A stretch of DNA of 64,000 nucleotides from an uncultured Bacteroidota bacterium. GTDB lineage: Bacteria; Bacteroidota; Bacteroidia; Flavobacteriales; Flavobacteriaceae. The notes under the pieces are model-generated. The model was not told the DNA's origin and ran no database searches. It saw only the letters and a list, made by a program, of their open reading frames with translations. The stretch lies in contig CABXHU010000002.1 of the NCBI GenBank assembly GCA_902512065.1, forward strand, positions 88,035-152,034. The letters run 5' to 3'. This document shows, piece by piece, positions 1 through 9,140 of this stretch. The translations under genes and the position numbers were made by a program. The stretch's first letter is position 1, and each line of letters begins with the position of its first letter.

Positions 1-149
1 AGATAAAAACGATAAAATGAGCCAACACTATTTCATCTTCTTACAATTATAAATATTAAGTTTTTCTGAAAACGAATAAGAAAGTTTAGATTTTCTTACA
101 AAGTATTACAGAATCTCCTTTAAACTTGTAGATTAGCAAAGAAAATAAT

Positions 150-167
150 AATTCGGAATTCCGAACT
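150..167. repeat. 18-bp palindromic motif copy 1 (AATTCGGAATTCCGAACT), abutting the start codon of ORF 169-1281
   Basis: Read directly. TTCGGAATTCCGAA is a perfect 14-bp palindrome. It shares 16/18 positions with the copy at 4486-4503 and the CCGAACT half-site with 3481-3498. Confidence 0.7.
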
Positions 168-168
168 T

Positions 169-1281
169 ATGAAGCAGATTAGAATTTTAGTAATTCCAAA
201 TATCACTAATAGTAGAGATATTGAATCAGATAGTTTTTTTGATGTATTATTTCAACAGATAAACCAATTGGGAAATGACTTCTTTTGGATTGTACCAACC
301 ATTAAACAAAGTAAAAGAATAGGAGGGTTTAACAATGTTTTACAGATACCAATTGATATGAGTGGTAATATGTTCCATATGAGAGTAAATATGCCCTTAG
401 AACTCATTAAAATACTTCAAACATCAACACTAAATAAGAACAGAACCAATGATAAATTCTATGTAGAGTATGATATTGTGTATTCTCACTTGATGGATTG
501 GAATATTAGAAGATATGTACCAACTAAAAAGAAGATAATCGGTTATGCTCATTGGTGGGAAGGTTCATATTGTAATGGGTTATCAAATTTTAATAATCAT
601 TTGAATTTTGAAAGAGAAATATTAGGAACATTACAAACGGAAATCTGTTTTGTAAATACATTGGCACAAAAGAAAAGGGTTATTGAAGAGGCAAAGAAAA
701 CCTTTAATGAATCTATAATATCTCAATTAGAAAACATTATACAAGTCTATCATTTATCCATACCAAAAGAATCGATTAAAGAACCATCAGATAGTAGATA
801 TCGAATGATAACATTCAATCACCGTACAACCACATATAAAGGGTTTCCGAAATTTATGAAATGGATGAATGAGTTTAGAGATATCCGTACGGATTTTGAG
901 TTGTGGATTCCCCTAGCTGATAAAAAATATGATGAACATTGGATTGATACATCTTCCTATAGTAAAATGAAATATTTGGATAGGTTATCTAAATCATTGG
1001 TTTGTGTAGTTCCAAAGGATAAACACTTTGGTTGGAGTATTAGTGGAACTGATTCAATGATGGTTGGTACGCCTACACTATTTGAGGAATCTGATAACTA
1101 TAGAGAGATATTTCCGAAGGGTTTATTTTATTCGAATAAGAGAGAGTTTTTCTCCATAATGAATAATCTATTAGATGATTCCAAATATGTTAAGGAATGG
1201 GGTTTAAAATCGATTAGAAGGGCAAAAGAATTGAGTAATAATAAGAGTATTCAGTTGTTAAGGGAAAATCTTTTGGTTTAA
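169..1281 (+). CDS. Hypothetical protein, possibly a GT-B (double Rossmann) glycosyltransferase-like fold; cargo of the mobile element
   Basis: 370-aa ORF. The N-terminus MKQIRILVIPN resembles the beta1 strand of GT-B enzymes. The C-terminal block HFGWSISGTDSMMVGTPTLFEESDNYREIF resembles the GT4/GT-B nucleotide-sugar binding region (E-FG-x-EAM-x-G-PV) but lacks the canonical glutamates. The fold call is weak. Confidence 0.55.
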   Translation: MKQIRILVIPNITNSRDIESDSFFDVLFQQINQLGNDFFWIVPTIKQSKRIGGFNNVLQIPIDMSGNMFHMRVNMPLELIKILQTSTLNKNRTNDKFYVEYDIVYSHLMDWNIRRYVPTKKKIIGYAHWWEGSYCNGLSNFNNHLNFEREILGTLQTEICFVNTLAQKKRVIEEAKKTFNESIISQLENIIQVYHLSIPKESIKEPSDSRYRMITFNHRTTTYKGFPKFMKWMNEFRDIRTDFELWIPLADKKYDEHWIDTSSYSKMKYLDRLSKSLVCVVPKDKHFGWSISGTDSMMVGTPTLFEESDNYREIFPKGLFYSNKREFFSIMNNLLDDSKYVKEWGLKSIRRAKELSNNKSIQLLRENLLV

Positions 1282-3467
1282 TCTTCGGTTTCCATAATTT
1301 GAAGGGATTTCCCTCTATTAGCTAACCAACTTCTCAAAGTTTGTTCATCCATCTCTTCGTACCAATAGAACTCATTATCTAACCTACCTTCTGACTTGAG
1401 TTTTTGATATCTCTTTATCGCTTTTGGTTTCCACCATTTTAATATCTTTTCAATCGATATATCTTTCTTTTCCAATTTACTTTCATCGATATTACCGTTA
1501 AGGAAATCTTTAGTATTCTTATACAATTCACAGAAATAAACACCTTTCTCATTCAGATGGAAATAATCGGATTTCTTTAATCCTAAATAATCAAAGATTT
1601 TCCCCATTAATTGTTGTTTAGGGCCCGTTTGAACACCTCCACTTGGTGAAAACATAGATTTGTTGTAATCCTCCATATTATTTTGTTTCAACCAATTCAA
1701 CCAATACGAATAAATGTTTGCTGTTGGGTTTAGTATTACTTTACCTTTTGTTCTACCTAATTTTTTCAAATTAGGTATTCCATTATATGTTGAATTAGTA
1801 CCAAATAGAGCTGTGGTAGTAATTCCTACTAACACATCACCATATCTTTCCTTCCAATCGTTTTGAATTCTATCGGTAAAAGATAGTGATGCTATCAATT
1901 TCGTGCCTAAGAAGTTATATCCTAAAACGGATGTGGAAACTAATGTTGGTGTGATAGCTGTGTGGTTAATCTTCTTTTCTGAAACCTTCATTGAATTACT
2001 CCATCCAATCTTTTTATCTCTAACATCGATATGCATAATATCAGAACCTACCACAATCATTCCTAATATCTTTTTTGTTGGTTTATCAACTACCAAATAT
2101 TTTAGATTACGGCCAGGATTTGGATTCCACTGCATCGAAGATGTATATATTCTTATGGCATTGAAAAAGGATTTATCTTTTGGTGGTTCTTCCAAATAAG
2201 GTTCTAATGATTCGATTTCTTTAATCGTTTGTTTCTCATTACTAATATCGGCTGGTTTCCATAATGATTTTAATGCCTTCTTTCTTACTTCTATAGGGAT
2301 ATTCGTTCCTTCAATCTCATCAAATTTCTCATATACTAATAATTCCCTCATTGTTAGAGACTTCTTAAAATCTAAATCTTTGATTAACTCACTTCTCTTT
2401 TTATCTAACTCATTTAACTTGGATTCATCAAATGAAATGGTTTTATATTTCCCTAATGTTATTTCGCTCATTAAACTGAAAGGATAGGTATTTTGAATCG
2501 TATCAATTAACTCATCAACTGATACTTTGGGAAGGTTTCGTTTGATTGGTACTGTATAATCATTATCGGTTTTTCCTTTTTGTTTTTTAGATTTGATTAC
2601 AGATGGTAAAGAGTTGTATGCCTTTTCAACACTTATCGTTCCCATTGGGTTCACCTTCAATAATTTTATCTCTTCAATCAATTTGGGATTCTCTTTATAA
2701 ACCTTATACCATTTCCAAGCTGTATCCTTATTGATTCCAAAATCTTTAGCAATTGTTTGAACTACATTGATACTATCAGTTTTACCTCTACCGCCTAACT
2801 TCTGATATAGGTTTTTATCTAATTCATCAAATTCTCTTTTGAATATACTTTTGTTTTTTTCCCTCTGTTTGTTGAAATGAATGATAGCAAGGATATCGTT
2901 ATCAAACTCAACAATTCTTATAGGTACAGATTCAATACCAACAGATTTACAGGCGAACCATCTCCTATGCCCACTAATAATTTGTTTAGTTGGATTTACA
3001 ACGATAGGTTCTAATATTCCATATTTCTTAATGGATTCAATAAAATCGTTTCTTAAATCTTTATCCTCCGATTCAAAAGGTTCATAAATTTCATAGTTGT
3101 AGGGGTGGGGTTTAATGCTATCAATAGGAACTTCCGTTATTTCGAAATTATCGAATGTAGGTTGAGAATCCTTTTCAATATTTGTAATAAGGTTAACTAC
3201 TGAAATTTTCTTTGGGTTCAATTTCTTTTCTATTTCTAAATTCTCGCCACCATCTACCCATCCATCACCTTTTAATTTAACGGATGTTACTTGATTCATT
3301 TTTCCTTTAGCTAATTTAATAGCTTCCTTTTCGGTAATCTTACCATCCTCAATACCTTTTAAAAGATTAGGATGTTTATCTAATAACTTTTTATTCATTT
3401 TAGATTCTAACTCCCTTTTCTTTTTTGAGAATTCTTTTCGCTTTCGTTTGTGTTTTTCGTAATCCAT
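1278..3467 (-). CDS. ParB/Srx-like N-terminal domain, HTH and DUF4338-like (DruA-type) C-terminal domain fusion protein
   Basis: 729-aa ORF. Residues 112-186 carry IDSIKPHPYN, YGILEPIVV and ISGHRRWFACKSVG, the last being the ParB GxxRxxA arginine patch. Residues 238-256 are HTH-like (TIAKDFGINKDTAWKWYKV). Residues ~436-580 carry GRNLKYLV, VRDKKIGWS, DWKERYG and GRTKGK, which match my recollection of the DUF4338 consensus blocks. Confidence 0.7.
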   Translation of the reverse strand: MDYEKHKRKRKEFSKKKRELESKMNKKLLDKHPNLLKGIEDGKITEKEAIKLAKGKMNQVTSVKLKGDGWVDGGENLEIEKKLNPKKISVVNLITNIEKDSQPTFDNFEITEVPIDSIKPHPYNYEIYEPFESEDKDLRNDFIESIKKYGILEPIVVNPTKQIISGHRRWFACKSVGIESVPIRIVEFDNDILAIIHFNKQREKNKSIFKREFDELDKNLYQKLGGRGKTDSINVVQTIAKDFGINKDTAWKWYKVYKENPKLIEEIKLLKVNPMGTISVEKAYNSLPSVIKSKKQKGKTDNDYTVPIKRNLPKVSVDELIDTIQNTYPFSLMSEITLGKYKTISFDESKLNELDKKRSELIKDLDFKKSLTMRELLVYEKFDEIEGTNIPIEVRKKALKSLWKPADISNEKQTIKEIESLEPYLEEPPKDKSFFNAIRIYTSSMQWNPNPGRNLKYLVVDKPTKKILGMIVVGSDIMHIDVRDKKIGWSNSMKVSEKKINHTAITPTLVSTSVLGYNFLGTKLIASLSFTDRIQNDWKERYGDVLVGITTTALFGTNSTYNGIPNLKKLGRTKGKVILNPTANIYSYWLNWLKQNNMEDYNKSMFSPSGGVQTGPKQQLMGKIFDYLGLKKSDYFHLNEKGVYFCELYKNTKDFLNGNIDESKLEKKDISIEKILKWWKPKAIKRYQKLKSEGRLDNEFYWYEEMDEQTLRSWLANRGKSLQIMETED

Positions 3468-3480
3468 ATTAAAAAAGAAT

Positions 3481-3498
3481 AGTTCGGTTTTCCGAACT
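3481..3498. repeat. 18-bp palindromic motif copy 2 (AGTTCGGTTTTCCGAACT), 14 nt upstream of the ParB-DUF4338 gene start
   Basis: Perfect 7-bp inverted arms AGTTCGG/CCGAACT separated by TTTT. The half-site is the same as in copies 1 and 3. Confidence 0.7.
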
Positions 3499-3850
3499 CT
3501 TCAAATTTAGTAAAAAGAATTAGTATGTTTTTTCTATACTGTAAAAATTTGTTTGCTATAAATTAACGATACCGAGCCAGATTTAAGAAAAAAACTTTTC
3601 CCTAGATGCAAGTAACCTCTTGGGGTATATATACGGATGCTTTTTCCCAATATAAGGTACTTAAAATTCCTGAGAAAATCAAGGAATAATCAATGTTTAT
3701 AGGGTATTAAGAGTTGATTTTTATACATTTTAGATGTATACCTTAAAGAGTGAGTTTGAAATTCAAAAAAACATCAAAATAACCCGAAAAATAGTTGCCT
3801 GATACACAAAATTGAAGTAACTTCACTATGAAATCAAAAAAGTGTAAAAA

Positions 3851-4486
3851 ATGAGAATATTAAGATACAATCGTTGTTCTACTTTAGAACAAAATTTAGA
3901 TTATCAGAAGAAATCTGAGGAATCTGTTAAATATGCATATGTTTTCGATGAATATGAGAGTGGGATGCAGAACTTGTTTAGCAGAAAAAAAGGTTCAATC
4001 GTAAAAGAATTGGTACTTGAAAAAAAAATTGATGAAATCAGCATCTATTCAGTAGATAGAATTAGTAGGAGTATAGCTGATTTGTGTAGTATTATAGATT
4101 TTCTTCATAGTAATGGAGTTTCTCTATCAATTGAAAATTTAGGTGTAAAATCGTTGGTAGAAGGTAAGGAAACACCTGCAATTATGTTTTTAATTCATCT
4201 TCAATCCGCATTTTCACAAATGAATTACTACGATAGGAGAGAAAAACAACTCGCTGGGATTGAGAGAGCAAAATTAAAAGGGGTATATAAAAACAGAAAA
4301 TTGAGAGGAAAAGAAACATTAGATAATTGGATTAAGAAACCGAAGATTAGAAAAGCAATAGAAATAATTAAGATGAATCCAAAGATGAGGAATTGTGATA
4401 TCGCTAAGGTATCAGAGTTACATTACAATACAATTAGAAAGATTAGAGAGAAAATGGAGATACCTAAAATGGAGGTGGCTGTATAA
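3851..4486 (+). CDS. Serine recombinase (resolvase/invertase family)
   Basis: The N-terminus MRILRYNRCSTLEQNLDYQ fits the resolvase catalytic motif Y-x-R-x-S-x-x-x-Q. It also has a DRISRS motif and a C-terminal HTH-like segment (NCDIAKVSELHYNTIRKI). Size is 211 aa. Confidence 0.8.
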   Translation: MRILRYNRCSTLEQNLDYQKKSEESVKYAYVFDEYESGMQNLFSRKKGSIVKELVLEKKIDEISIYSVDRISRSIADLCSIIDFLHSNGVSLSIENLGVKSLVEGKETPAIMFLIHLQSAFSQMNYYDRREKQLAGIERAKLKGVYKNRKLRGKETLDNWIKKPKIRKAIEIIKMNPKMRNCDIAKVSELHYNTIRKIREKMEIPKMEVAV

Positions 4487-4503
4487 AACCGGAATTCCGA
4501 ACT
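4486..4503. repeat. 18-bp motif copy 3 (AAACCGGAATTCCGAACT), between the convergent stops of the two recombinase genes
   Basis: CGGAATTCCGAACT is identical to copy 1. It begins on the last base of the resolvase stop codon and ends 3 nt before the integrase stop. Confidence 0.7.
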
Positions 4504-4505
4504 CT

Positions 4506-6254
4506 TTATTGTTCGATTCTATTTTTATTTAATATGGTTTTTAATCTATTAGTTAATAAGGTTTCTCTACCACTTTCAATATCCAATCTCTTATAATACA
4601 TCATCATTGTTTGCATCGTATGGCCAACAATTTCACATAATTCCATCGGTTCTACACCTTCTCTTCTTACCATATATGAAATAAAGTTTTTTCGAAGGTG
4701 GTGTGAGGAAGTTATATTTCTAAATTTCCAGCCTAATCCATTTTCTATTACTTCTGTATGTAAACCTTTTTTTCTTTTTCTTACCACTTTGGTAGTTCCT
4801 TTGTTTACCATCTTCAACTTGAATAGATTCAAATAATAGTTGGTTTGTAATGGTTGGTTTGGTTTCTTTTTGAAATTTGGTGAGGAAAACAAATAGTATG
4901 ATTTAGGCCATAGATACATACAAACATCGATAATATTCGTTTCATATCGAAAGTCCTTCTTACCATCCTTAGTTTCAAACTCAACCTTATATCCTAATCC
5001 CTTTGGAGGTTTATGATGGAAGCTCCAAATCGTTTCATCAATAGGAACTATTCTATTTTTATGTTTAGAGTTAAGGATATAGAATAGATAAAGGTTTTTA
5101 TCTTTTTTATCTTTTGTAAAATATGAACGCATATTTACATCTGTTACATTGGATTTTATCATATCCTCTTTACTTCTAAATGATTTTAGAATTTCCCCAA
5201 TCCTAAAACCATATCTTAATTGTAATAAAGAAATAAAATAAACTATATCAACACCTATTGGATAATCAGATGGTTGATTTCTGTGAGGTTTCTTTCCTAA
5301 TGTAGAATCTTCATCTACTTTCGGATTATAGGTTGTTCGTAGTTGTTCCGTTTCTCCTTTATGTTTACAAACAGATATCCATTTCTCTCTAACTATTTCA
5401 ACACATTCCTTAACACACTTCAAATAATCTTCTTTATAGAACAATACCATATCATTCTTATCTTCAGGCGGTACATAATCTTTGTAATATTTCTTTATTA
5501 GTTCTATTTGAAAATCTACTGTAAATGGGTGATAATCGAACAATTCCAATCCATCTAATGATTTTTTTCTTACTAACCAATCACAAAAAAATCTAACACT
5601 CCTCAAATAATTCTTTGCGGTAGGCCTCCTAATAGTTTCACCTTTTTCAGAATTTAGGTATCCTTTTTTCTTACCGAACTCTAATGTATATTCCAAATAA
5701 TCTTTCACAACAGTTGTTAACGATGAAGTAGGTACAACACTAATAGGGATTTTATTGGTTTTACAATATTCATAAAACCCTCTAATATGAATTAATCTAT
5801 TCTTAACTGTAGTTTTATTTCTCTTTATTACTTTGATATTCTTATCATCTATTAACTTGAATTTCTTTATATCAAAATAATACCCTCCATCTGAGGAATG
5901 TTTTGTTATATACTCTAAAATGAATTCAGATAACAGATGAGAATTTTTAGTTTTGATTCTATAACCGGATTGGATTTTTATTTTAAGTTTTTCAAAAGCA
6001 TACTGAAATGATGTTTGATTATATTCTATATCTTTTGGTTCAGTACTACATAGATATTTGAATCTACTTTTACCTTTTGATAAAACATAATACCAAAAGA
6101 ATTTACCATTAACCTTTTTTATTATAAACGAACCCATCTTTTCGGGCGTATCAAAAATATCTTGGTTGGTTCTTATTAGAGCTTCCTCCAAAGATTTACT
6201 CCATCCATTGAGAGTTCTTAATTTATCTTGTGCCCATTTTGGAGTAATTCCCAT
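4506..6254 (-). CDS. Tyrosine recombinase / phage-type integrase with a long N-terminal extension
   Basis: The C-terminal catalytic signature is present: RYGFRIGE (Arg I), HHLRKNF (H-x-x-R) and VGHTMQTMMMYYKRL (His/Tyr). At 582 aa it is well above the usual 350-420 aa. Confidence 0.8.
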   Translation of the reverse strand: MGITPKWAQDKLRTLNGWSKSLEEALIRTNQDIFDTPEKMGSFIIKKVNGKFFWYYVLSKGKSRFKYLCSTEPKDIEYNQTSFQYAFEKLKIKIQSGYRIKTKNSHLLSEFILEYITKHSSDGGYYFDIKKFKLIDDKNIKVIKRNKTTVKNRLIHIRGFYEYCKTNKIPISVVPTSSLTTVVKDYLEYTLEFGKKKGYLNSEKGETIRRPTAKNYLRSVRFFCDWLVRKKSLDGLELFDYHPFTVDFQIELIKKYYKDYVPPEDKNDMVLFYKEDYLKCVKECVEIVREKWISVCKHKGETEQLRTTYNPKVDEDSTLGKKPHRNQPSDYPIGVDIVYFISLLQLRYGFRIGEILKSFRSKEDMIKSNVTDVNMRSYFTKDKKDKNLYLFYILNSKHKNRIVPIDETIWSFHHKPPKGLGYKVEFETKDGKKDFRYETNIIDVCMYLWPKSYYLFSSPNFKKKPNQPLQTNYYLNLFKLKMVNKGTTKVVRKRKKGLHTEVIENGLGWKFRNITSSHHLRKNFISYMVRREGVEPMELCEIVGHTMQTMMMYYKRLDIESGRETLLTNRLKTILNKNRIEQ

Positions 6255-6265
6255 CTATTTTTGTT

Positions 6266-6348
6266 GTTGGTAAAAACTCTAATTTAATGAAATTATATCA
6301 AAATTTGATAAAATTCAAAAGAAATTTGTTGGTAAATCGTTGGTAAAT
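6266..6348 (+). repeat. Three direct copies of GTTGGTAAA (6266-6274, 6328-6336, 6339-6347) just upstream of the integrase start
   Basis: Read directly. Their position next to the int gene is compatible with arm-type integrase binding sites, but the motif is short. Confidence 0.3.
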
Positions 6349-6662
6349 GAAATATTCAGTTTTTTAGAAATCTTTGTTATCCTCTGTTAAATAAGGATTT
6401 TGGAGGTAATTAACAACGACCATAAGAGTTTATGTAAAGCGATTTTTCCACTTTTTTAGAACTATCTTGATTTTTTAAAATTGTAGACTCACCATTATAT
6501 AGGTATGGGTTTTTTTCTACTTTTTTTAAATCGTTACTCATTATCTATAATATAAATATAGTCTGCAAATATATTAAAAATACGCCAATTTGTCATGTTT
6601 TTTAGTATGATCTCATTAAATGCACGATTTTCATGTATTATATGGATATTAAAAAATTCTTC

Positions 6663-6670
6663 TACATTTG
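6663..6670 (+). promoter_or_regulatory. Bacteroidota -7 promoter box TAcaTTTG upstream of topA
   Basis: Matches the TAnnTTTG consensus. It ends 20 nt upstream of the ATG at 6690. Confidence 0.45.
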
Positions 6671-6689
6671 TACATCTTAATTAAAAAAA

Positions 6690-9140
6690 ATGGCAAAGAA
6701 TTTAGTAATAGTTGAGTCTCCAGCAAAAGCAAAAACAATAGAGAAATTTTTGGGAAATGATTTTAAGGTAGCTTCAAGTTTTGGTCACATATCTGATTTA
6801 CCTTCTAAAGATCTTGGTGTAGATGTAGAGGGGGATTTTAAACCTAAATATGAAGTATCAAAAGATAAAAAGAGTGTAGTTAAGAACCTTAAAGATTTAG
6901 CTAATAAATCTGAAACAATATGGTTAGCTAGTGATGAGGACCGTGAGGGAGAGGCAATTGCATGGCATTTATTTAGACTATTAAAGCTAGAGGAAAGTAA
7001 TACAAAACGTATTGTTTTTAATGAAATTACAAAATCTGCTATTCAAAAGGCAATTGATAATCCTAGATCAATAGATTACAATCTTGTTGATGCTCAACAG
7101 GCTAGAAGAGTTTTAGATAGAATTGTTGGATATGAATTATCACCAGTTTTATGGCGAAAAATTAAGAGCGGGCTGTCTGCAGGACGAGTTCAATCAGTAT
7201 CAGTTAGATTAATAGTTGAAAAGGAAAGAGAGATTAAAGGCTTTAATTCTGAAAGTAGTTATAGGGTTGATGCTGAATTTATAACAAAAAATGGAAAAAA
7301 TTTAAAGGCAAAACTTGAAAAAACATTTAATAATAAGGAGAGTGCTCAAAGTTTTTTAAAGAAAAATATAGATTCTAGTTTTTCAGTGGAAAGTTTAGAG
7401 AAAAAACCCTTAAAAAAATCTCCTTCTGCTCCATTTACTACTTCTACATTGCAACAGGAGGCATCTAGAAAATTGTATTTTTCTGTATCAAAGACAATGA
7501 CTGTAGCACAAAGGTTATATGAGTCAGGCCTAATAACATATATGAGAACTGATAGCGTAAATCTTTCGAATTTAGCTAAGGATTCTGCTAAAGATCATAT
7601 TGTAAAAAATTATGGAAATCAATATTCTAGCACAAAATCATATAAAACAAAGTCTAAAGGCGCACAGGATGCTCATGAAGCAATCAGACCAACAGACTTT
7701 TCAATGATAGGAGATAATATTGCAGATAATGATCAAAAAAGATTATATCAATTAATTTGGAAAAGAACTATTGCGTCTCAAATGACTGATGCTGCTTTAG
7801 AAAAAACAAATGTTAAAATAAAATCCTCTAATCATGAAATTTTATTTGCTTCAACGGGTCAAATAGTCAAATTTGACGGGTTTTTAAAAGTCTATTCTGA
7901 AGTAAAGGGCGATGAAGTCGAAGAAGATAATTCTATTTTACCTAAAGTTGATTTGAATGAAGATTTAAAGTTTACTTATATCAGGGCTAATCAGAGATTT
8001 TCTAGACCTCCATTTAGATATACGGAAGCATCATTAGTAAAAAAACTAGAAGATTTAGGAATTGGAAGGCCTTCAACTTACGCACCTACTATATCTACAA
8101 TTCAAAATAGAGGATATGTAGAAAAAGGAACTGTAGAAGGAGAAAAAAGAGATTATATACAATTAATTCTAGAAAATAATAAAATTATTGAAAACACGCT
8201 ACAGGAAAAAGTGGGTTCAGATAAGGGAAAATTAGTTCCAACAGATATAGGAATGATTGTAACGGACTTTTTAATAAATCATTTTGAAAACATTATGGAT
8301 TATAATTTTACGGCTAGTGTTGAAAAAGATTTTGATAATATAGCCGATGGTAAACAAGAATGGACATCAATGATGAAGGAATTTTACAAAAAATTTCATC
8401 CTGTAGTAGAAGATGTGAGTAAAAATGCTGAAAGGGAATCGGGAAAAAGGATATTGGGAGTTCATCCTGAAAATAAAAAAGAAATAAGTGTTAGATTAGG
8501 AAAATTTGGACCAATGATTCAAATTGGGACTGTTGAGGATGAGGAAAAACCTGTTTTTGCAAGTTTGCCCCCTGAAATGCAGATTGAGTCAGTGACATTA
8601 GAGCAGGCGCTTGATTTGTTTTCCTTGCCTAGGGAATTAGGAGAGTATAATAACGAAGTCATTTTAGCTAACAATGGAAGGTATGGACCATATGTAAAAT
8701 ATGGGAAAAAATTTGTTTCAATCCCAAAAGGGAAGTCTCCATTGTCCATTTCAATTGAAGAAGCCGTGGAGTTTATAAAGATTAAGGAAAAATCAGAAGC
8801 ACCAATATATAATTATGAGGGATTAGATGTACAAAAAGGTAAAGGGAAGTTTGGGCCATTTATTAAGTGGAATAATATGTTTATCAACGTTGGAAAAAAA
8901 TATGATTGGGATAACTTATCTGAAAATGACATTATTGAGCTTATTGAGGATAAAAAGAAAAAAGAAAAGGAGAAGCTTATTCATAACTGGTCAGATGAAA
9001 ATATAAGAGTTGAAAAGGGGAAATGGGGTAAAATATATATTATTAAGGGAAAAATTAGAAAAGAATTATCTAAATCGATTGATCCAAAAGAATTAACTCT
9101 TGATGATGCTATAAAAATACTAGATAATAAAAAAGAATAG
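6690..9140 (+). CDS. topA: DNA topoisomerase I
   Basis: N-terminal Toprim segment MAKNLVIVESPAKAKTIEKFLG. Contains DEDREGEAIAWH and the active-site region LITYMRTDS. The lysine-rich C-terminal repeats are typical of Bacteroidota TopA. Confidence 0.95.
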   Translation: MAKNLVIVESPAKAKTIEKFLGNDFKVASSFGHISDLPSKDLGVDVEGDFKPKYEVSKDKKSVVKNLKDLANKSETIWLASDEDREGEAIAWHLFRLLKLEESNTKRIVFNEITKSAIQKAIDNPRSIDYNLVDAQQARRVLDRIVGYELSPVLWRKIKSGLSAGRVQSVSVRLIVEKEREIKGFNSESSYRVDAEFITKNGKNLKAKLEKTFNNKESAQSFLKKNIDSSFSVESLEKKPLKKSPSAPFTTSTLQQEASRKLYFSVSKTMTVAQRLYESGLITYMRTDSVNLSNLAKDSAKDHIVKNYGNQYSSTKSYKTKSKGAQDAHEAIRPTDFSMIGDNIADNDQKRLYQLIWKRTIASQMTDAALEKTNVKIKSSNHEILFASTGQIVKFDGFLKVYSEVKGDEVEEDNSILPKVDLNEDLKFTYIRANQRFSRPPFRYTEASLVKKLEDLGIGRPSTYAPTISTIQNRGYVEKGTVEGEKRDYIQLILENNKIIENTLQEKVGSDKGKLVPTDIGMIVTDFLINHFENIMDYNFTASVEKDFDNIADGKQEWTSMMKEFYKKFHPVVEDVSKNAERESGKRILGVHPENKKEISVRLGKFGPMIQIGTVEDEEKPVFASLPPEMQIESVTLEQALDLFSLPRELGEYNNEVILANNGRYGPYVKYGKKFVSIPKGKSPLSISIEEAVEFIKIKEKSEAPIYNYEGLDVQKGKGKFGPFIKWNNMFINVGKKYDWDNLSENDIIELIEDKKKKEKEKLIHNWSDENIRVEKGKWGKIYIIKGKIRKELSKSIDPKELTLDDAIKILDNKKE

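What the first reader, a model, noticed from the sequence alone, without database searches (positions are those of the whole stretch)
1278..3467. ParB/Srx-like domain fused to a DUF4338 (Druantia DruA-type) domain on a mobile element: an architecture I do not recognise
The sequence shows three parts. Residues 112-186 (nt ~2910-3134) carry ParB-N hallmarks, including ISG166-H-R-R-W-F-A, which is the GxxRxxA arginine patch. Residues 238-256 are HTH-like. Residues ~436-580 (nt ~1728-2162) carry the blocks GRNLKYLV, VRDKKIGWS, DWKERYG and GRTKGK, in the same order as the DUF4338 consensus as I remember it (G-x-x-LRY-x-V, RD-x-x-IGW, DW-x-x-YG, G-x-TKG). From established knowledge, the ParB arginine patch binds CTP and turns ParB into a DNA-sliding clamp loaded at palindromic parS sites. 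DUF4338 is the signature domain of DruA in the Druantia anti-phage system, and its mechanism is unknown. No other Druantia genes (druB-E, the DUF1998 helicase) are present here. My inference is a self-contained, site-loaded DNA sensor or effector, acting as a defence, exclusion or element-maintenance module. It is carried with its own recombinases and has candidate loading sites nearby (see the 18-bp motif finding).
Basis: partly seen in the sequence, partly recalled or inferred. Interest (0 to 1): 0.82.

Follow-up and report, generated by a model that had tools for sequence, protein, structure and literature searches.

The report
ParB-fused DruA enzyme with glycosyltransferase partner
A small mobile element carries a protein that joins a ParB-type DNA-loading module to a DruA-type enzyme domain and is always paired with a sugar-transferase gene; relatives of the pair sit among phage DNA-replication genes, so it is most likely a targeted DNA-modification module rather than a Druantia defence system.

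Summary
ORF 1278-3467(-) encodes a 729-aa protein. It has a ParB N-terminal domain (Pfam E 3e-11), a weak HTH and a DruA/DUF4338 domain (E 2e-20). No other Druantia gene was found.

Three findings are new.
1. It is not self-contained. The 370-aa convergent neighbour, which shares a TTAA stop overlap, is a divergent GT-B glycosyltransferase. The pair recurs on all nine related element loci, with a serine resolvase wherever the contig extends far enough.
2. The DruA-like domain is closest to a large clade of standalone phage proteins (T4-like marine phages, uncultured PolB phages). In phages the same glycosyltransferase lies near a DruA-like gene in 28 of 31 full-length loci, beside DNA polymerase, clamp loader and Mom genes. 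ParB fusions turned up only in resolvase/integrase contexts and never in viral contigs.
3. A confident model of the domain has a GNAT-like fold.

An element-specific palindrome occurs three times, just upstream of both genes and between the recombinase genes. Its sequence tracks the HTH of the fusion protein, not that of the resolvase.

Best reading (about 0.45): a site-loaded, ParB-gated DNA-modifying transferase plus glycosyltransferase. The substrate is inferred, not shown. It is a new variant of the ParB-fused DNA-modification enzymes.

The parts
1278..3467 (-). 729-aa fusion protein: basic N-terminal tail, ParB-N domain, HTH, helical linker, DruA/DUF4338 (GNAT-like) domain
   Evidence: ORF; Pfam, PADLOC and NCBIfam; homologs
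2892..3140 (-). ParB N-terminal (NTP-binding) domain, residues 110-192. Box II is ISGHRRWFA; a Box III-like FNKQREK follows just downstream, at residues 198-204
   Evidence: Pfam E 3e-11; alignment to ParB 6t1f / Spo0J 6sdk; invariant S165 G166 R168 R169 N199 R202 K204 across 15 fusions
2691..2777 (-). Helix-turn-helix, residues ~231-259. The recognition helix INKDTAWKWYKV differs from the ISRGSATKLYKI of the close homologs
   Evidence: weak Pfam HTH_23 E 0.07; two helices in the low-confidence model; alignment; covariation with the palindrome type
1350..2411 (-). DruA-like transferase module, residues ~353-706 (Pfam DruA match 408-658). Predicted GNAT-like fold
   Evidence: Pfam E 2.1e-20; span of standalone homologs; model pLDDT 87.4, pTM 0.84; Foldseek
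169..1281 (+). 370-aa partner: divergent GT-B (GT4-like) glycosyltransferase. It is convergent with the fusion gene, and the two stop codons share TTAA at 1278-1281
   Evidence: 52 homologs; 25 of 30 hit PF00534 and 10 hit PF13439; conserved pairing
151..166 (.). Palindrome copy 1 (ATTCGGAATTCCGAAC), ending 2 nt before the glycosyltransferase ATG
   Evidence: chance expectation 0.07 matches per window
3482..3497 (.). Palindrome copy 2 (GTTCGGTTTTCCGAAC), 15 nt upstream of the fusion-gene ATG and 4 nt downstream of a TAAATTTG (Bacteroidota -7-like) box
4487..4502 (.). Palindrome copy 3 (AACCGGAATTCCGAAC), between the convergent stop codons of the resolvase and the tyrosine recombinase
   Evidence: the same position is occupied in L094 and L004
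3851..4486 (+). 211-aa small serine recombinase (resolvase/invertase type) with a C-terminal HTH
   Evidence: Pfam Resolvase E 2.8e-16; present in seven of the nine related element loci (the other two contigs are cut off on that side) and in 10 of 13 full-flank loci of the distant fusion clade
4506..6254 (-). 582-aa tyrosine recombinase/integrase, bordering housekeeping topA (6690-9140)
   Evidence: Phage_integrase E 1.9e-5, below cut-off; weak GmtZ hit; homologs at the same position in L002, L004, L005 and L096

Best explanation
The 729-aa protein and the convergent 370-aa glycosyltransferase form a two-gene DNA-modification module. It is carried by a small integrative element that also encodes a serine resolvase and a tyrosine integrase, with optional restriction-modification cargo in relatives.

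Proposed mechanism:
1. The HTH recognises the element-specific 16-18-bp palindromes. There are three copies. Two overlap the 5' ends of the two genes, so binding probably also autoregulates the pair.
2. The ParB-type N-domain binds a nucleoside triphosphate and gates engagement with DNA, or sliding along it, from those sites.
3. The fused DruA-type, GNAT-like transferase installs an acyl-type group on DNA in cis.
4. The GT-B enzyme adds a sugar to that group.

Shown by tool results: the domain architecture, the conserved gene pairing, the phage replication-module context of the standalone pair, the GNAT-like fold, and the position and covariation of the palindromes. Inferred: that DNA is the substrate, the order of the two enzymatic steps, NTP-gated loading or sliding, and the biological pay-off (self-marking, or protection from restriction).
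For: Architecture.

Obligate pairing: all nine close loci (L001-L005, L094-L097) carry the fusion gene and the glycosyltransferase gene (only a remnant in L095). The same 4-nt stop overlap is annotated in L001-L005 and L094. In a more distant ~600-aa fusion clade, 8 of 13 loci with at least 1.5 kb on both sides of the fusion gene keep the glycosyltransferase adjacent. It occurs in divergent and in both co-directional orders.

Phage counterpart: 259 relatives of the glycosyltransferase are found in IMG/VR. 28 of 31 full-flank loci have a standalone DruA-like gene within 6 kb on the same strand, often overlapping. Conserved neighbours are family-B DNA polymerase (62 loci), two Mom-family genes (56 loci), clamp loader, RNR, dUTPase and a PD-(D/E)XK nuclease.

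Asymmetry: only 15 of 34 full-flank DruA-selected loci have the glycosyltransferase. This fits the sugar step being downstream of the DruA step.

Other DNA-directed fusions of the domain: UDG-superfamily-DruA, and LAGLIDADG intein-interrupted DruA.

Standalone homologs in cultured T4-like pelagiphages and cyanophages lie among gp46/47, UvsW/Y and gp44/45 genes.

Fold: the model has pLDDT 87.4. About 47 of the top 50 PDB matches are GNAT-fold enzymes. The first named viral match is Mom, E 5.2e-4. An independent statement that DUF4338 is a GNAT domain is in PMC10853773.

Precedent for ParB-like proteins driving DNA base modification: PMC13229309. Precedent for ParB-fold fusions to methyltransferases and acetyltransferases: 10.1101/2025.10.10.680097.

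Sites: the palindrome occurs only within the element. It occupies the same three positions in L094 with a different sequence. The resolvase HTH is nearly identical in the window and L094, whereas the fusion protein's HTH differs. The palindrome type follows the HTH class in four classes covering 12 loci.
Against: - No tool result shows the substrate. DNA is inferred from fusions and neighbourhoods only.
- Foldseek matches to solved GNATs are weak (best E 7.8e-3, no hit at or below 1e-3).
- Profile-profile comparison with Mom finds nothing.
- The window's own glycosyltransferase copy has no Pfam hit even at E 1. Its family has no sequence relative in the PDB. Its EX7E-type motif is altered, on my reading.
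- The catalytic Glu of ParB Box II is His here (GHRR). No ParB C-terminal dimerisation domain or ParA was detected, so clamp-type sliding is unproven. ParB NTP-site mutants were dispensable in the one tested ParB-dependent modification system.
- DruA is by definition a defence-system component, and relatives of this element carry restriction-modification cargo, which equally fits a defence role.
- The covariation rests on few independent lineages and is confounded by relatedness.
- The full-length model was poor (pLDDT 55).
Confidence: 0.45

Rival explanations
1. It is a minimal Druantia-like anti-phage or anti-plasmid defence module. The ParB/HTH part marks or monitors self DNA, while the DruA domain and the glycosyltransferase act on invading DNA or nucleotides. 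The element is a small defence island.
For: PADLOC DruA1 hit, E 2.5e-20. Homology to DruA of a bona fide Druantia I operon on Nitrosococcus pNWAT01. Related elements carry MmeI-like or MvaI/BcnI restriction-modification cargo next to the pair. The carrier is an integrative element with recombinases.
Against: No DruB-E or any helicase or nuclease effector in the window or in any of the nine related loci. The closest relatives of both genes are phage genes inside replication and Mom modules. Only 25-28% identity to Druantia DruA, against 33-41% to phage proteins. No nuclease or toxic effector domain was detected in either protein.
Confidence: 0.2
2. It is an element-maintenance or regulatory protein. 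Like KorB or ParB, it binds the element's palindromes to repress its genes or to stabilise or partition the excised circle. The GNAT-like domain acetylates a protein such as a nucleoid protein or a recombinase. The glycosyltransferase is merely co-regulated cargo.
For: ParB-N plus HTH architecture and three palindromes. Two overlap the 5' ends of genes, and one lies just downstream of a -7-like box. The module is constantly associated with the resolvase and integrase. A ParB-fold fusion to an acetyltransferase is known.
Against: It does not explain why the glycosyltransferase follows DruA-like genes in phages that have no ParB, resolvase or palindromes (28 of 31 loci). It also does not explain the UDG fusion. 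No ParA was found. The DruA-domain residues are conserved like those of an enzyme, from phages to elements.
Confidence: 0.13
3. It is a glycan or small-molecule pathway: a GNAT N-acetyltransferase plus a GT4 enzyme that modifies a sugar-nucleotide, a cell-envelope glycan or a metabolite (lysogenic-conversion type). The ParB/HTH part acts only as a transcription factor.
For: GT4-type glycosyltransferases and GNAT enzymes commonly work together in envelope-sugar pathways (established knowledge). Homologs of the partner are labelled 'glycosyltransferase involved in cell wall biosynthesis' by JGI.
Against: The phage copies lie between DNA polymerase, clamp loader, Mom, dUTPase and RNR genes, not in envelope or lysis modules. 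The domain is fused to ParB-N and UDG. The four-gene elements contain no other sugar-pathway gene, flippase or membrane protein.
Confidence: 0.08

Closest known systems
DruA (PF14236/DUF4338) of type I Druantia
   Same: Homologous C-terminal domain: Pfam 73.5 bits, PADLOC DruA1 E 2.5e-20, and 25-28% identity to annotated DruA, including one in a DruA-helicase operon.
   Different: No DruB-E. An N-terminal ParB/HTH module is added. The obligate partner is a glycosyltransferase. The carrier is a resolvase/integrase element. In sequence it is closer to standalone phage proteins than to Druantia DruA.
ParB / KorB / Noc CTP-dependent DNA clamps
   Same: The N-domain carries Box I, II and III-type motifs and aligns to 6t1f, 6sdk and 7ol9. 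An HTH follows it. Several short palindromic sites are clustered on the element, some at promoters, as for KorB.
   Different: GERR is replaced by GHRR. No ParA, and no recognisable C-terminal dimerisation domain. The C-terminal half is an enzyme domain. Nucleotide specificity is unknown.
ParB-fold proteins coupled to DNA-modifying enzymes (ParB-N6/N4 methyltransferase fusions; ParB-dependent phage thymine dioxygenases; DndB, DpdB)
   Same: A ParB-type module is joined to, or required by, a DNA base- or backbone-modifying enzyme on phages and mobile elements.
   Different: The enzyme here is a DruA-type GNAT-like domain. It is not mentioned in the main text of the 2025 survey of ParB-fold fusions. 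It has a dedicated glycosyltransferase partner.
Phage Mu Mom (GNAT-like adenine-modifying enzyme)
   Same: GNAT-like fold. It is the best named structural match among viral models (E 5.2e-4, TMt 0.56). Mom-family genes co-occur with the DruA-like/glycosyltransferase pair in 56 of 80 phage loci.
   Different: No sequence-profile similarity. The DruA module is about twice as long, with extra helical parts.
Phage DNA glycosyltransferases (T4 alpha/beta-glucosyltransferases, GT-B fold)
   Same: A GT-B-type enzyme encoded next to DNA-metabolism genes in phages. By analogy it decorates a group already installed on DNA (established knowledge for T4).
   Different: No detectable sequence relation. The partner resembles the GT4/Glycos_transf_1 families only weakly. 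Its acceptor and donor are unknown.

Membership tests
ParB/Srx superfamily (PF02195) | Profile match above the curated threshold | tested here: met
   ParB_N E 3e-11, 43.7 bits against a 26.3 cut-off, residues 110-192
ParB/Srx superfamily (PF02195) | Box II arginine patch GxxRxxA and Box III N/R | tested here: met
   ISGHRRWFA and FNKQREK. S165, G166, R168, R169, N199 and R202 are invariant in 15 fusions. They align to the GERRxRA of 6t1f and 6sdk.
Canonical CTPase ParB clamp (partition type) | Catalytic Glu in GERR, a C-terminal dimerisation domain and a ParA partner | tested here: not met
   The Glu is His (GHRR). No ParB C-terminal or ParA family hit in the protein or among the neighbours.
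Canonical CTPase ParB clamp (partition type) | NTP binding or hydrolysis, and loading at palindromic sites | not testable with these tools
   Only indirect evidence: three element-specific palindromes that co-vary with the HTH
DruA / DUF4338 (PF14236) | Profile match above the curated threshold | tested here: met
   E 2.1e-20, 73.5 bits against a 27 cut-off; PADLOC DruA1 E 2.5e-20
Type I Druantia system | druA together with druB, druC, druD and the DUF1998 helicase druE | tested here: not met
   No PADLOC hit for the other large ORFs of the window, and no ORF of DruE size. None in the nine related loci. By contrast, the pNWAT01 operon has the helicase.
GNAT acyltransferase fold | Structural similarity to solved GNAT enzymes | tested here: inconclusive
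   In a confident model (pLDDT 87.4), about 47 of the top 50 PDB matches are GNAT-fold. But the best E is 7.8e-3 and TMt is 0.45-0.6. A literature statement is in PMC10853773.
GNAT acyltransferase fold | Acyl-CoA (or other donor) binding and transfer | not testable with these tools
   A motif-A-like QPxGYNxLGGKL follows the predicted beta4 strand. This is my reading only.
Mom family (PF25680) | Sequence-profile membership | tested here: not met
   No Pfam Mom hit. hhalign probability is 2.7% or less. There is only fold-level similarity, E 5.2e-4.
GT-B glycosyltransferase, GT4/Glycos_transf_1 (partner gene) | Profile match to PF00534 / PF13439 | tested here: inconclusive
   The window copy has no hit at E 1. 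However, 25 of 30 homologs at 41-89% identity hit PF00534 (best 3.8e-8) and 10 hit PF13439.

The most novel reading that the evidence does not exclude
The fusion protein is an NTP-gated ParB clamp that loads at element-specific palindromes and carries a base-modifying DruA enzyme along the DNA. It writes a previously unknown acyl-plus-sugar DNA hypermodification that spreads in cis from its loading sites. By extension, DruA of type I Druantia and the standalone proteins of T4-like marine phages would be DNA-modifying enzymes of the same chemistry.
Probability: 0.15. Interest if true: 0.9.

Novelty: new variant of a known kind. Interest (0 to 1): 0.62.

Why it matters
DruA is the signature protein of type I Druantia, and the paper library searched here holds no account of its mechanism. 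This architecture works as a Rosetta stone. The same domain is fused to a DNA-loading ParB/HTH module, elsewhere to a UDG-type domain, and is coupled to a glycosyltransferase inside phage replication and Mom modules. That gives a concrete, testable hypothesis: DruA-type domains modify DNA.

It also adds a new enzymatic partner to the recently recognised class of ParB-fold proteins that control DNA modification. It suggests a way to confine a modification to DNA that carries loading sites. Finally, it flags an abundant uncharacterised gene in cultured pelagiphages and cyanophages as a candidate DNA-hypermodification enzyme.

Tried and rejected
- Full-length structure prediction with the 7-sequence alignment gave pLDDT 55 and was not used for fold search.
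- Profile-profile comparison of the DruA domain with Mom, as a single sequence and as a 74-sequence alignment, gave no signal. A Mom-like YxxxNWxxxGxTxG motif that I saw by eye is therefore not claimed.
- The glycosyltransferase profile against PDB sequences gave no hit even at E 10. The glycosyltransferase against GenBank phages by tblastn gave no match.
- The search for related loci with the broad alignments A6 and A2 failed, because no stretch was conserved enough.
- Looking up the window's own contig to extend it leftwards failed. The left end of the element is therefore not defined. In relatives, two or three small ORFs, one of them HTH_17 or excisionase-like, lie beyond the pair.
- No tRNA or Rfam family was found in window 1-7000.
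I rejected this because its HTH is almost identical in the window and L094 although their palindromes differ.
- I considered Druantia membership. I rejected it because the partners are absent.
- The literature gave nothing on DruA function. DUF4338 appears in only four papers, and only five papers hold DruA as a whole word together with DruB or DruC.
- In the distant fusion clade, palindromes were found upstream of only about a third of the genes. For one HTH class (GLSTTQLKKIKSI) they were inconsistent and are probably partly chance.


Full report

Yes. The ORF 1278..3467 on the minus strand encodes 729 aa.
- Pfam finds ParB_N at residues 110-192 (E 3e-11, 43.7 bits, cut-off 26.3).
- Pfam finds DruA/PF14236 at residues 408-658 (E 2.1e-20, 73.5 bits, cut-off 27).
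- The HTH at residues 236-257 is only a weak hit (E 0.07).
- PADLOC's DruA1 model agrees (E 2.5e-20). NCBIfam gives sub-threshold ParB-family hits.
- The N-domain aligns to solved CTP-binding ParB, Spo0J and Noc proteins (6t1f E 1.6e-7, 6sdk, 7ol9). IISGHRRWFA lies opposite the Box II sequence GERRWRAA, so the arginine patch is kept but the catalytic Glu is His.
- In an alignment of 15 fusion proteins down to 26% identity, S165, G166, R168, R169, N199, R202 and K204 are invariant. The ParB nucleotide pocket is therefore under selection.
- No other Druantia gene is present. All other ORFs of at least 600 aa except topA give no PADLOC hit, and nothing approaches DruE in size.

**2. The protein is not self-contained**

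The 370-aa ORF 169..1281(+) converges on the fusion gene, and the two stop codons share the tetranucleotide TTAA at 1278-1281.
- This ORF has no Pfam hit of its own. It has 52 homologs. Of 30 aligned members, 25 match Glycos_transf_1 and 10 match Glyco_transf_4. It is therefore a divergent GT-B glycosyltransferase.
- All nine close loci from metagenomes and MAGs (L001-L005, L094-L097; 48-65% identity) carry the pair. The same 4-nt stop overlap is annotated in L001-L005 and L094. The small serine resolvase is present in seven of them. A homolog of the window's tyrosine integrase is present in four, and L094 has a different integrase.
- Between the resolvase and the pair, relatives carry variable cargo. 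This is an MmeI-like restriction-modification enzyme in L002, and an MvaI/BcnI endonuclease plus an N6/N4 methylase in L004 and L005. The window and L094 have none.
- L095 is a decayed copy, split by an IS66 element.
- The insertion sites differ: next to topA in the window, and next to a MiaB/RimO-like gene in L001 and L004. This confirms mobility.
- The family is rare. Only two of 185,579 species-representative genomes have it, both freshwater MAGs.
- A more distant clade of ~600-aa ParB-DruA fusions exists in marine metagenomes (33-50% identity to P0064, the first sequence of query A7; 26-44% to the window protein). Among the 13 loci with at least 1.5 kb on both sides, 8 have the glycosyltransferase adjacent, 10 have a resolvase, and all 13 have at least one of the two. 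The glycosyltransferase occurs in a divergent order and in both co-directional orders.
- A gene pair that survives such rearrangement is functionally coupled.

**3. Where the DruA-like domain comes from**

- An exhaustive HMMER search found 5448 relatives, 113 of them at E 1e-30 or better. Most are standalone proteins of 360-420 aa that match residues ~353-706.
- A profile search found at least 1553 such proteins, mostly from marine samples.
- Their contigs are T4-like myophages, with gp23, UvsY/W, gp46/47, gp44/45 and gp25.
- Cultured examples include pelagiphages Mosig (annotated 'DUF4338 domain-containing protein') and HTVC008M, and 25 Synechococcus phage records.
- The window domain is 33% identical to the Mosig protein (176 bits) and about 41% identical to uncultured phage versions.
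- It is only 25-28% identical (74-87 bits) to plasmid genes annotated as Druantia DruA. One of these sits in a genuine operon with an 1849-aa helicase.
- Other fusions of the domain are UDG-superfamily-DruA, DUF3102-DruA, and DruA interrupted by LAGLIDADG inteins.

**4. The pair also exists in phages, in DNA-metabolism modules**

- Scanning IMG/VR with the glycosyltransferase profile gave 259 relatives.
- Of the best 80 loci, 58 have a DruA-like ORF on the same strand within 6 kb, often overlapping. Among loci with full flanks the figure is 28 of 31.
- Conserved neighbours are family-B DNA polymerase (62 loci), two Mom-family genes (56 loci; PF25680 E 2.4e-46), clamp-loader subunits, ribonucleotide reductase, dUTPase and a PD-(D/E)XK nuclease.
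- The dependence is asymmetric. Of viral loci selected by the DruA-like gene, only 15 of 34 with full flanks have the glycosyltransferase. This suggests that DruA acts first and the sugar transfer is an optional second step.
- None of those 80 viral loci has a ParB fusion. Fusions occur with resolvases and integrases instead.

**5. Fold**

- The full-length model was poor (pLDDT 55).
- With a 126-sequence alignment, the DruA module (residues 350-729) gave pLDDT 87.4 and pTM 0.84.
- Against the PDB no match reaches E 1e-3. Even so, about 47 of the top 50 are GNAT-fold enzymes (best 6erd, E 7.8e-3, TMt about 0.5).
- Against viral models, the top matches are uncharacterised giant-virus and phage proteins. 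The first named match is Mom (E 5.2e-4, TMt 0.56).
- Sequence profiles do not link DruA to Mom.
- A published comparative analysis independently calls DUF4338 a GNAT domain (PMC10853773).

**6. Palindromes**

- A 16-18-bp palindrome of the type GTTCGG-NN-TTCCGAAC occurs three times in the window and nowhere else in 64 kb. With up to three mismatches there are 6 strand-matches, against 1.05 expected.
  - Copy 1 (151-166) ends 2 nt before the glycosyltransferase ATG.
  - Copy 2 (3482-3497) lies 15 nt before the fusion-gene ATG, just after a TAAATTTG box that fits the Bacteroidota -7 consensus (my reading).
  - Copy 3 (4487-4502) lies between the stop codons of the resolvase and the integrase.
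- L094, the closest relative, has a different palindrome (CATAAGAACAAATTTGTTCTTATG) at the same three positions.
- L002, L004, L005, L096 and L097 have TGAACAA-NN-TTGTTCA-type sites upstream of the fusion gene. L004 and L005 also have one between the integrase and the resolvase.
- The resolvase HTH is nearly identical in the window and L094, at 80% overall identity. The HTH of the fusion protein differs: INKDTAWKWYKV against SRGSATKIYKI.
- Across the wider set, the palindrome type follows the HTH class in four classes covering 12 loci.
- The fusion protein, not the resolvase, is therefore the likely reader.

**7. Interpretation**

The best-supported reading is a two-enzyme DNA-modification module. 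A DruA-type GNAT-like transferase is tethered by a ParB/HTH module to DNA that carries the element's palindromes. A glycosyltransferase then extends the primary modification.

There is precedent. ParB-like proteins activate phage thymine dioxygenases (PMC13229309). ParB-fold fusions to methyltransferases and acetyltransferases are widespread on mobile elements and bind various NTPs (10.1101/2025.10.10.680097). That survey does not mention DruA in its main text.

What is shown is the architecture, the gene coupling, the genomic contexts, the fold class and the site covariation. What is inferred is that DNA is the substrate, the chemistry, the NTP-gated loading or sliding, and the benefit to the element.

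The rivals are a defence effector, a KorB-like regulator with a protein acetyltransferase, and a glycan pathway. None is excluded. I give them about 0.20, 0.13 and 0.08, against 0.45 for DNA modification.

**8. Comparison, novelty and verdict**

- The protein is a member of the ParB/Srx and DruA Pfam families.
- It is not a canonical partition ParB: the catalytic Glu, ParA and a C-terminal dimerisation domain are all missing.
- It is not part of a Druantia system.
- It belongs to the known kind 'ParB-fold module coupled to a DNA-modifying enzyme', with a new enzyme domain and a new obligate partner. I therefore rate it a new variant of a known kind.
- Its main value is that it makes the function of DruA-type domains experimentally approachable, in Druantia and in abundant marine phages.
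- Interest score: 0.62.

Noticed in passing
window 151-166, 3482-3497, 4487-4502; L094 2212-2257, 3393-3424, 6739-6776: An element-specific palindrome occurs in three copies at conserved positions: before each gene of the pair, and between the convergent recombinase genes. The third position is not a promoter, and its role is unexplained (loading site, roadblock or terminator, or recombination site).
   Followed up: partly
L004/L005/L096/L097 versus window/L094/L002: The glycosyltransferase/ParB-DruA pair is inverted relative to the resolvase and integrase genes in some elements. In L001-L002 and L004-L005 both kinds of element are inserted next to the same MiaB/RimO-like gene. This raises the possibility of recombinase-mediated inversion of the pair.
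   Followed up: no
L094 349-423 and 3190-3265: Two tRNA-Val(GAC) genes bracket the integrase and resolvase genes. The second lies about 160 nt upstream of the ParB-DruA gene. It could be an att duplication or a cargo tRNA. The integrase of this element is unrelated to the window's (Arm-DNA-bind_5 type).
   Followed up: no
L008 4327-13716 (phage contig): One phage segment encodes two Mom-family proteins, a standalone DruA-like protein, the glycosyltransferase, a GmrSD_N/HNH-type protein, dCMP deaminase, ligase and clamp loader. This is an unusually dense set of DNA-modification-related genes in an uncultured phage lineage with no GenBank relative for the glycosyltransferase.
   Followed up: partly
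P0090 (L261 1283-3205); P0197, P0198; P0088: The DruA domain is also found fused to a UDG-superfamily domain and to DUF3102, and interrupted by LAGLIDADG inteins.
   Followed up: partly
L095 10001-14430: A relative of the fusion gene is split by an IS66-family insertion, and the glycosyltransferase is reduced to a ~32-codon remnant. This is a decaying copy of the module. A large serine recombinase lies next to the small resolvase.
   Followed up: no
GenBank phage records: PQ898602 S-SCSM2R, OP535465 S-CREM1: Standalone DruA-like genes of cyanophages are annotated inconsistently: 'methylcarbamoylase mom', 'iron-binding protein', 'putative cytoplasmic protein'. At least some annotators have already transferred Mom-like labels, presumably from structure-based tools.
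   Followed up: no
window 4506-6254 (-): The 582-aa tyrosine recombinase is below Pfam's Phage_integrase threshold. It gives a weak hit to the gamma-mobile-trio integrase GmtZ model (E 5.9e-5). Its family assignment is open.
   Followed up: no
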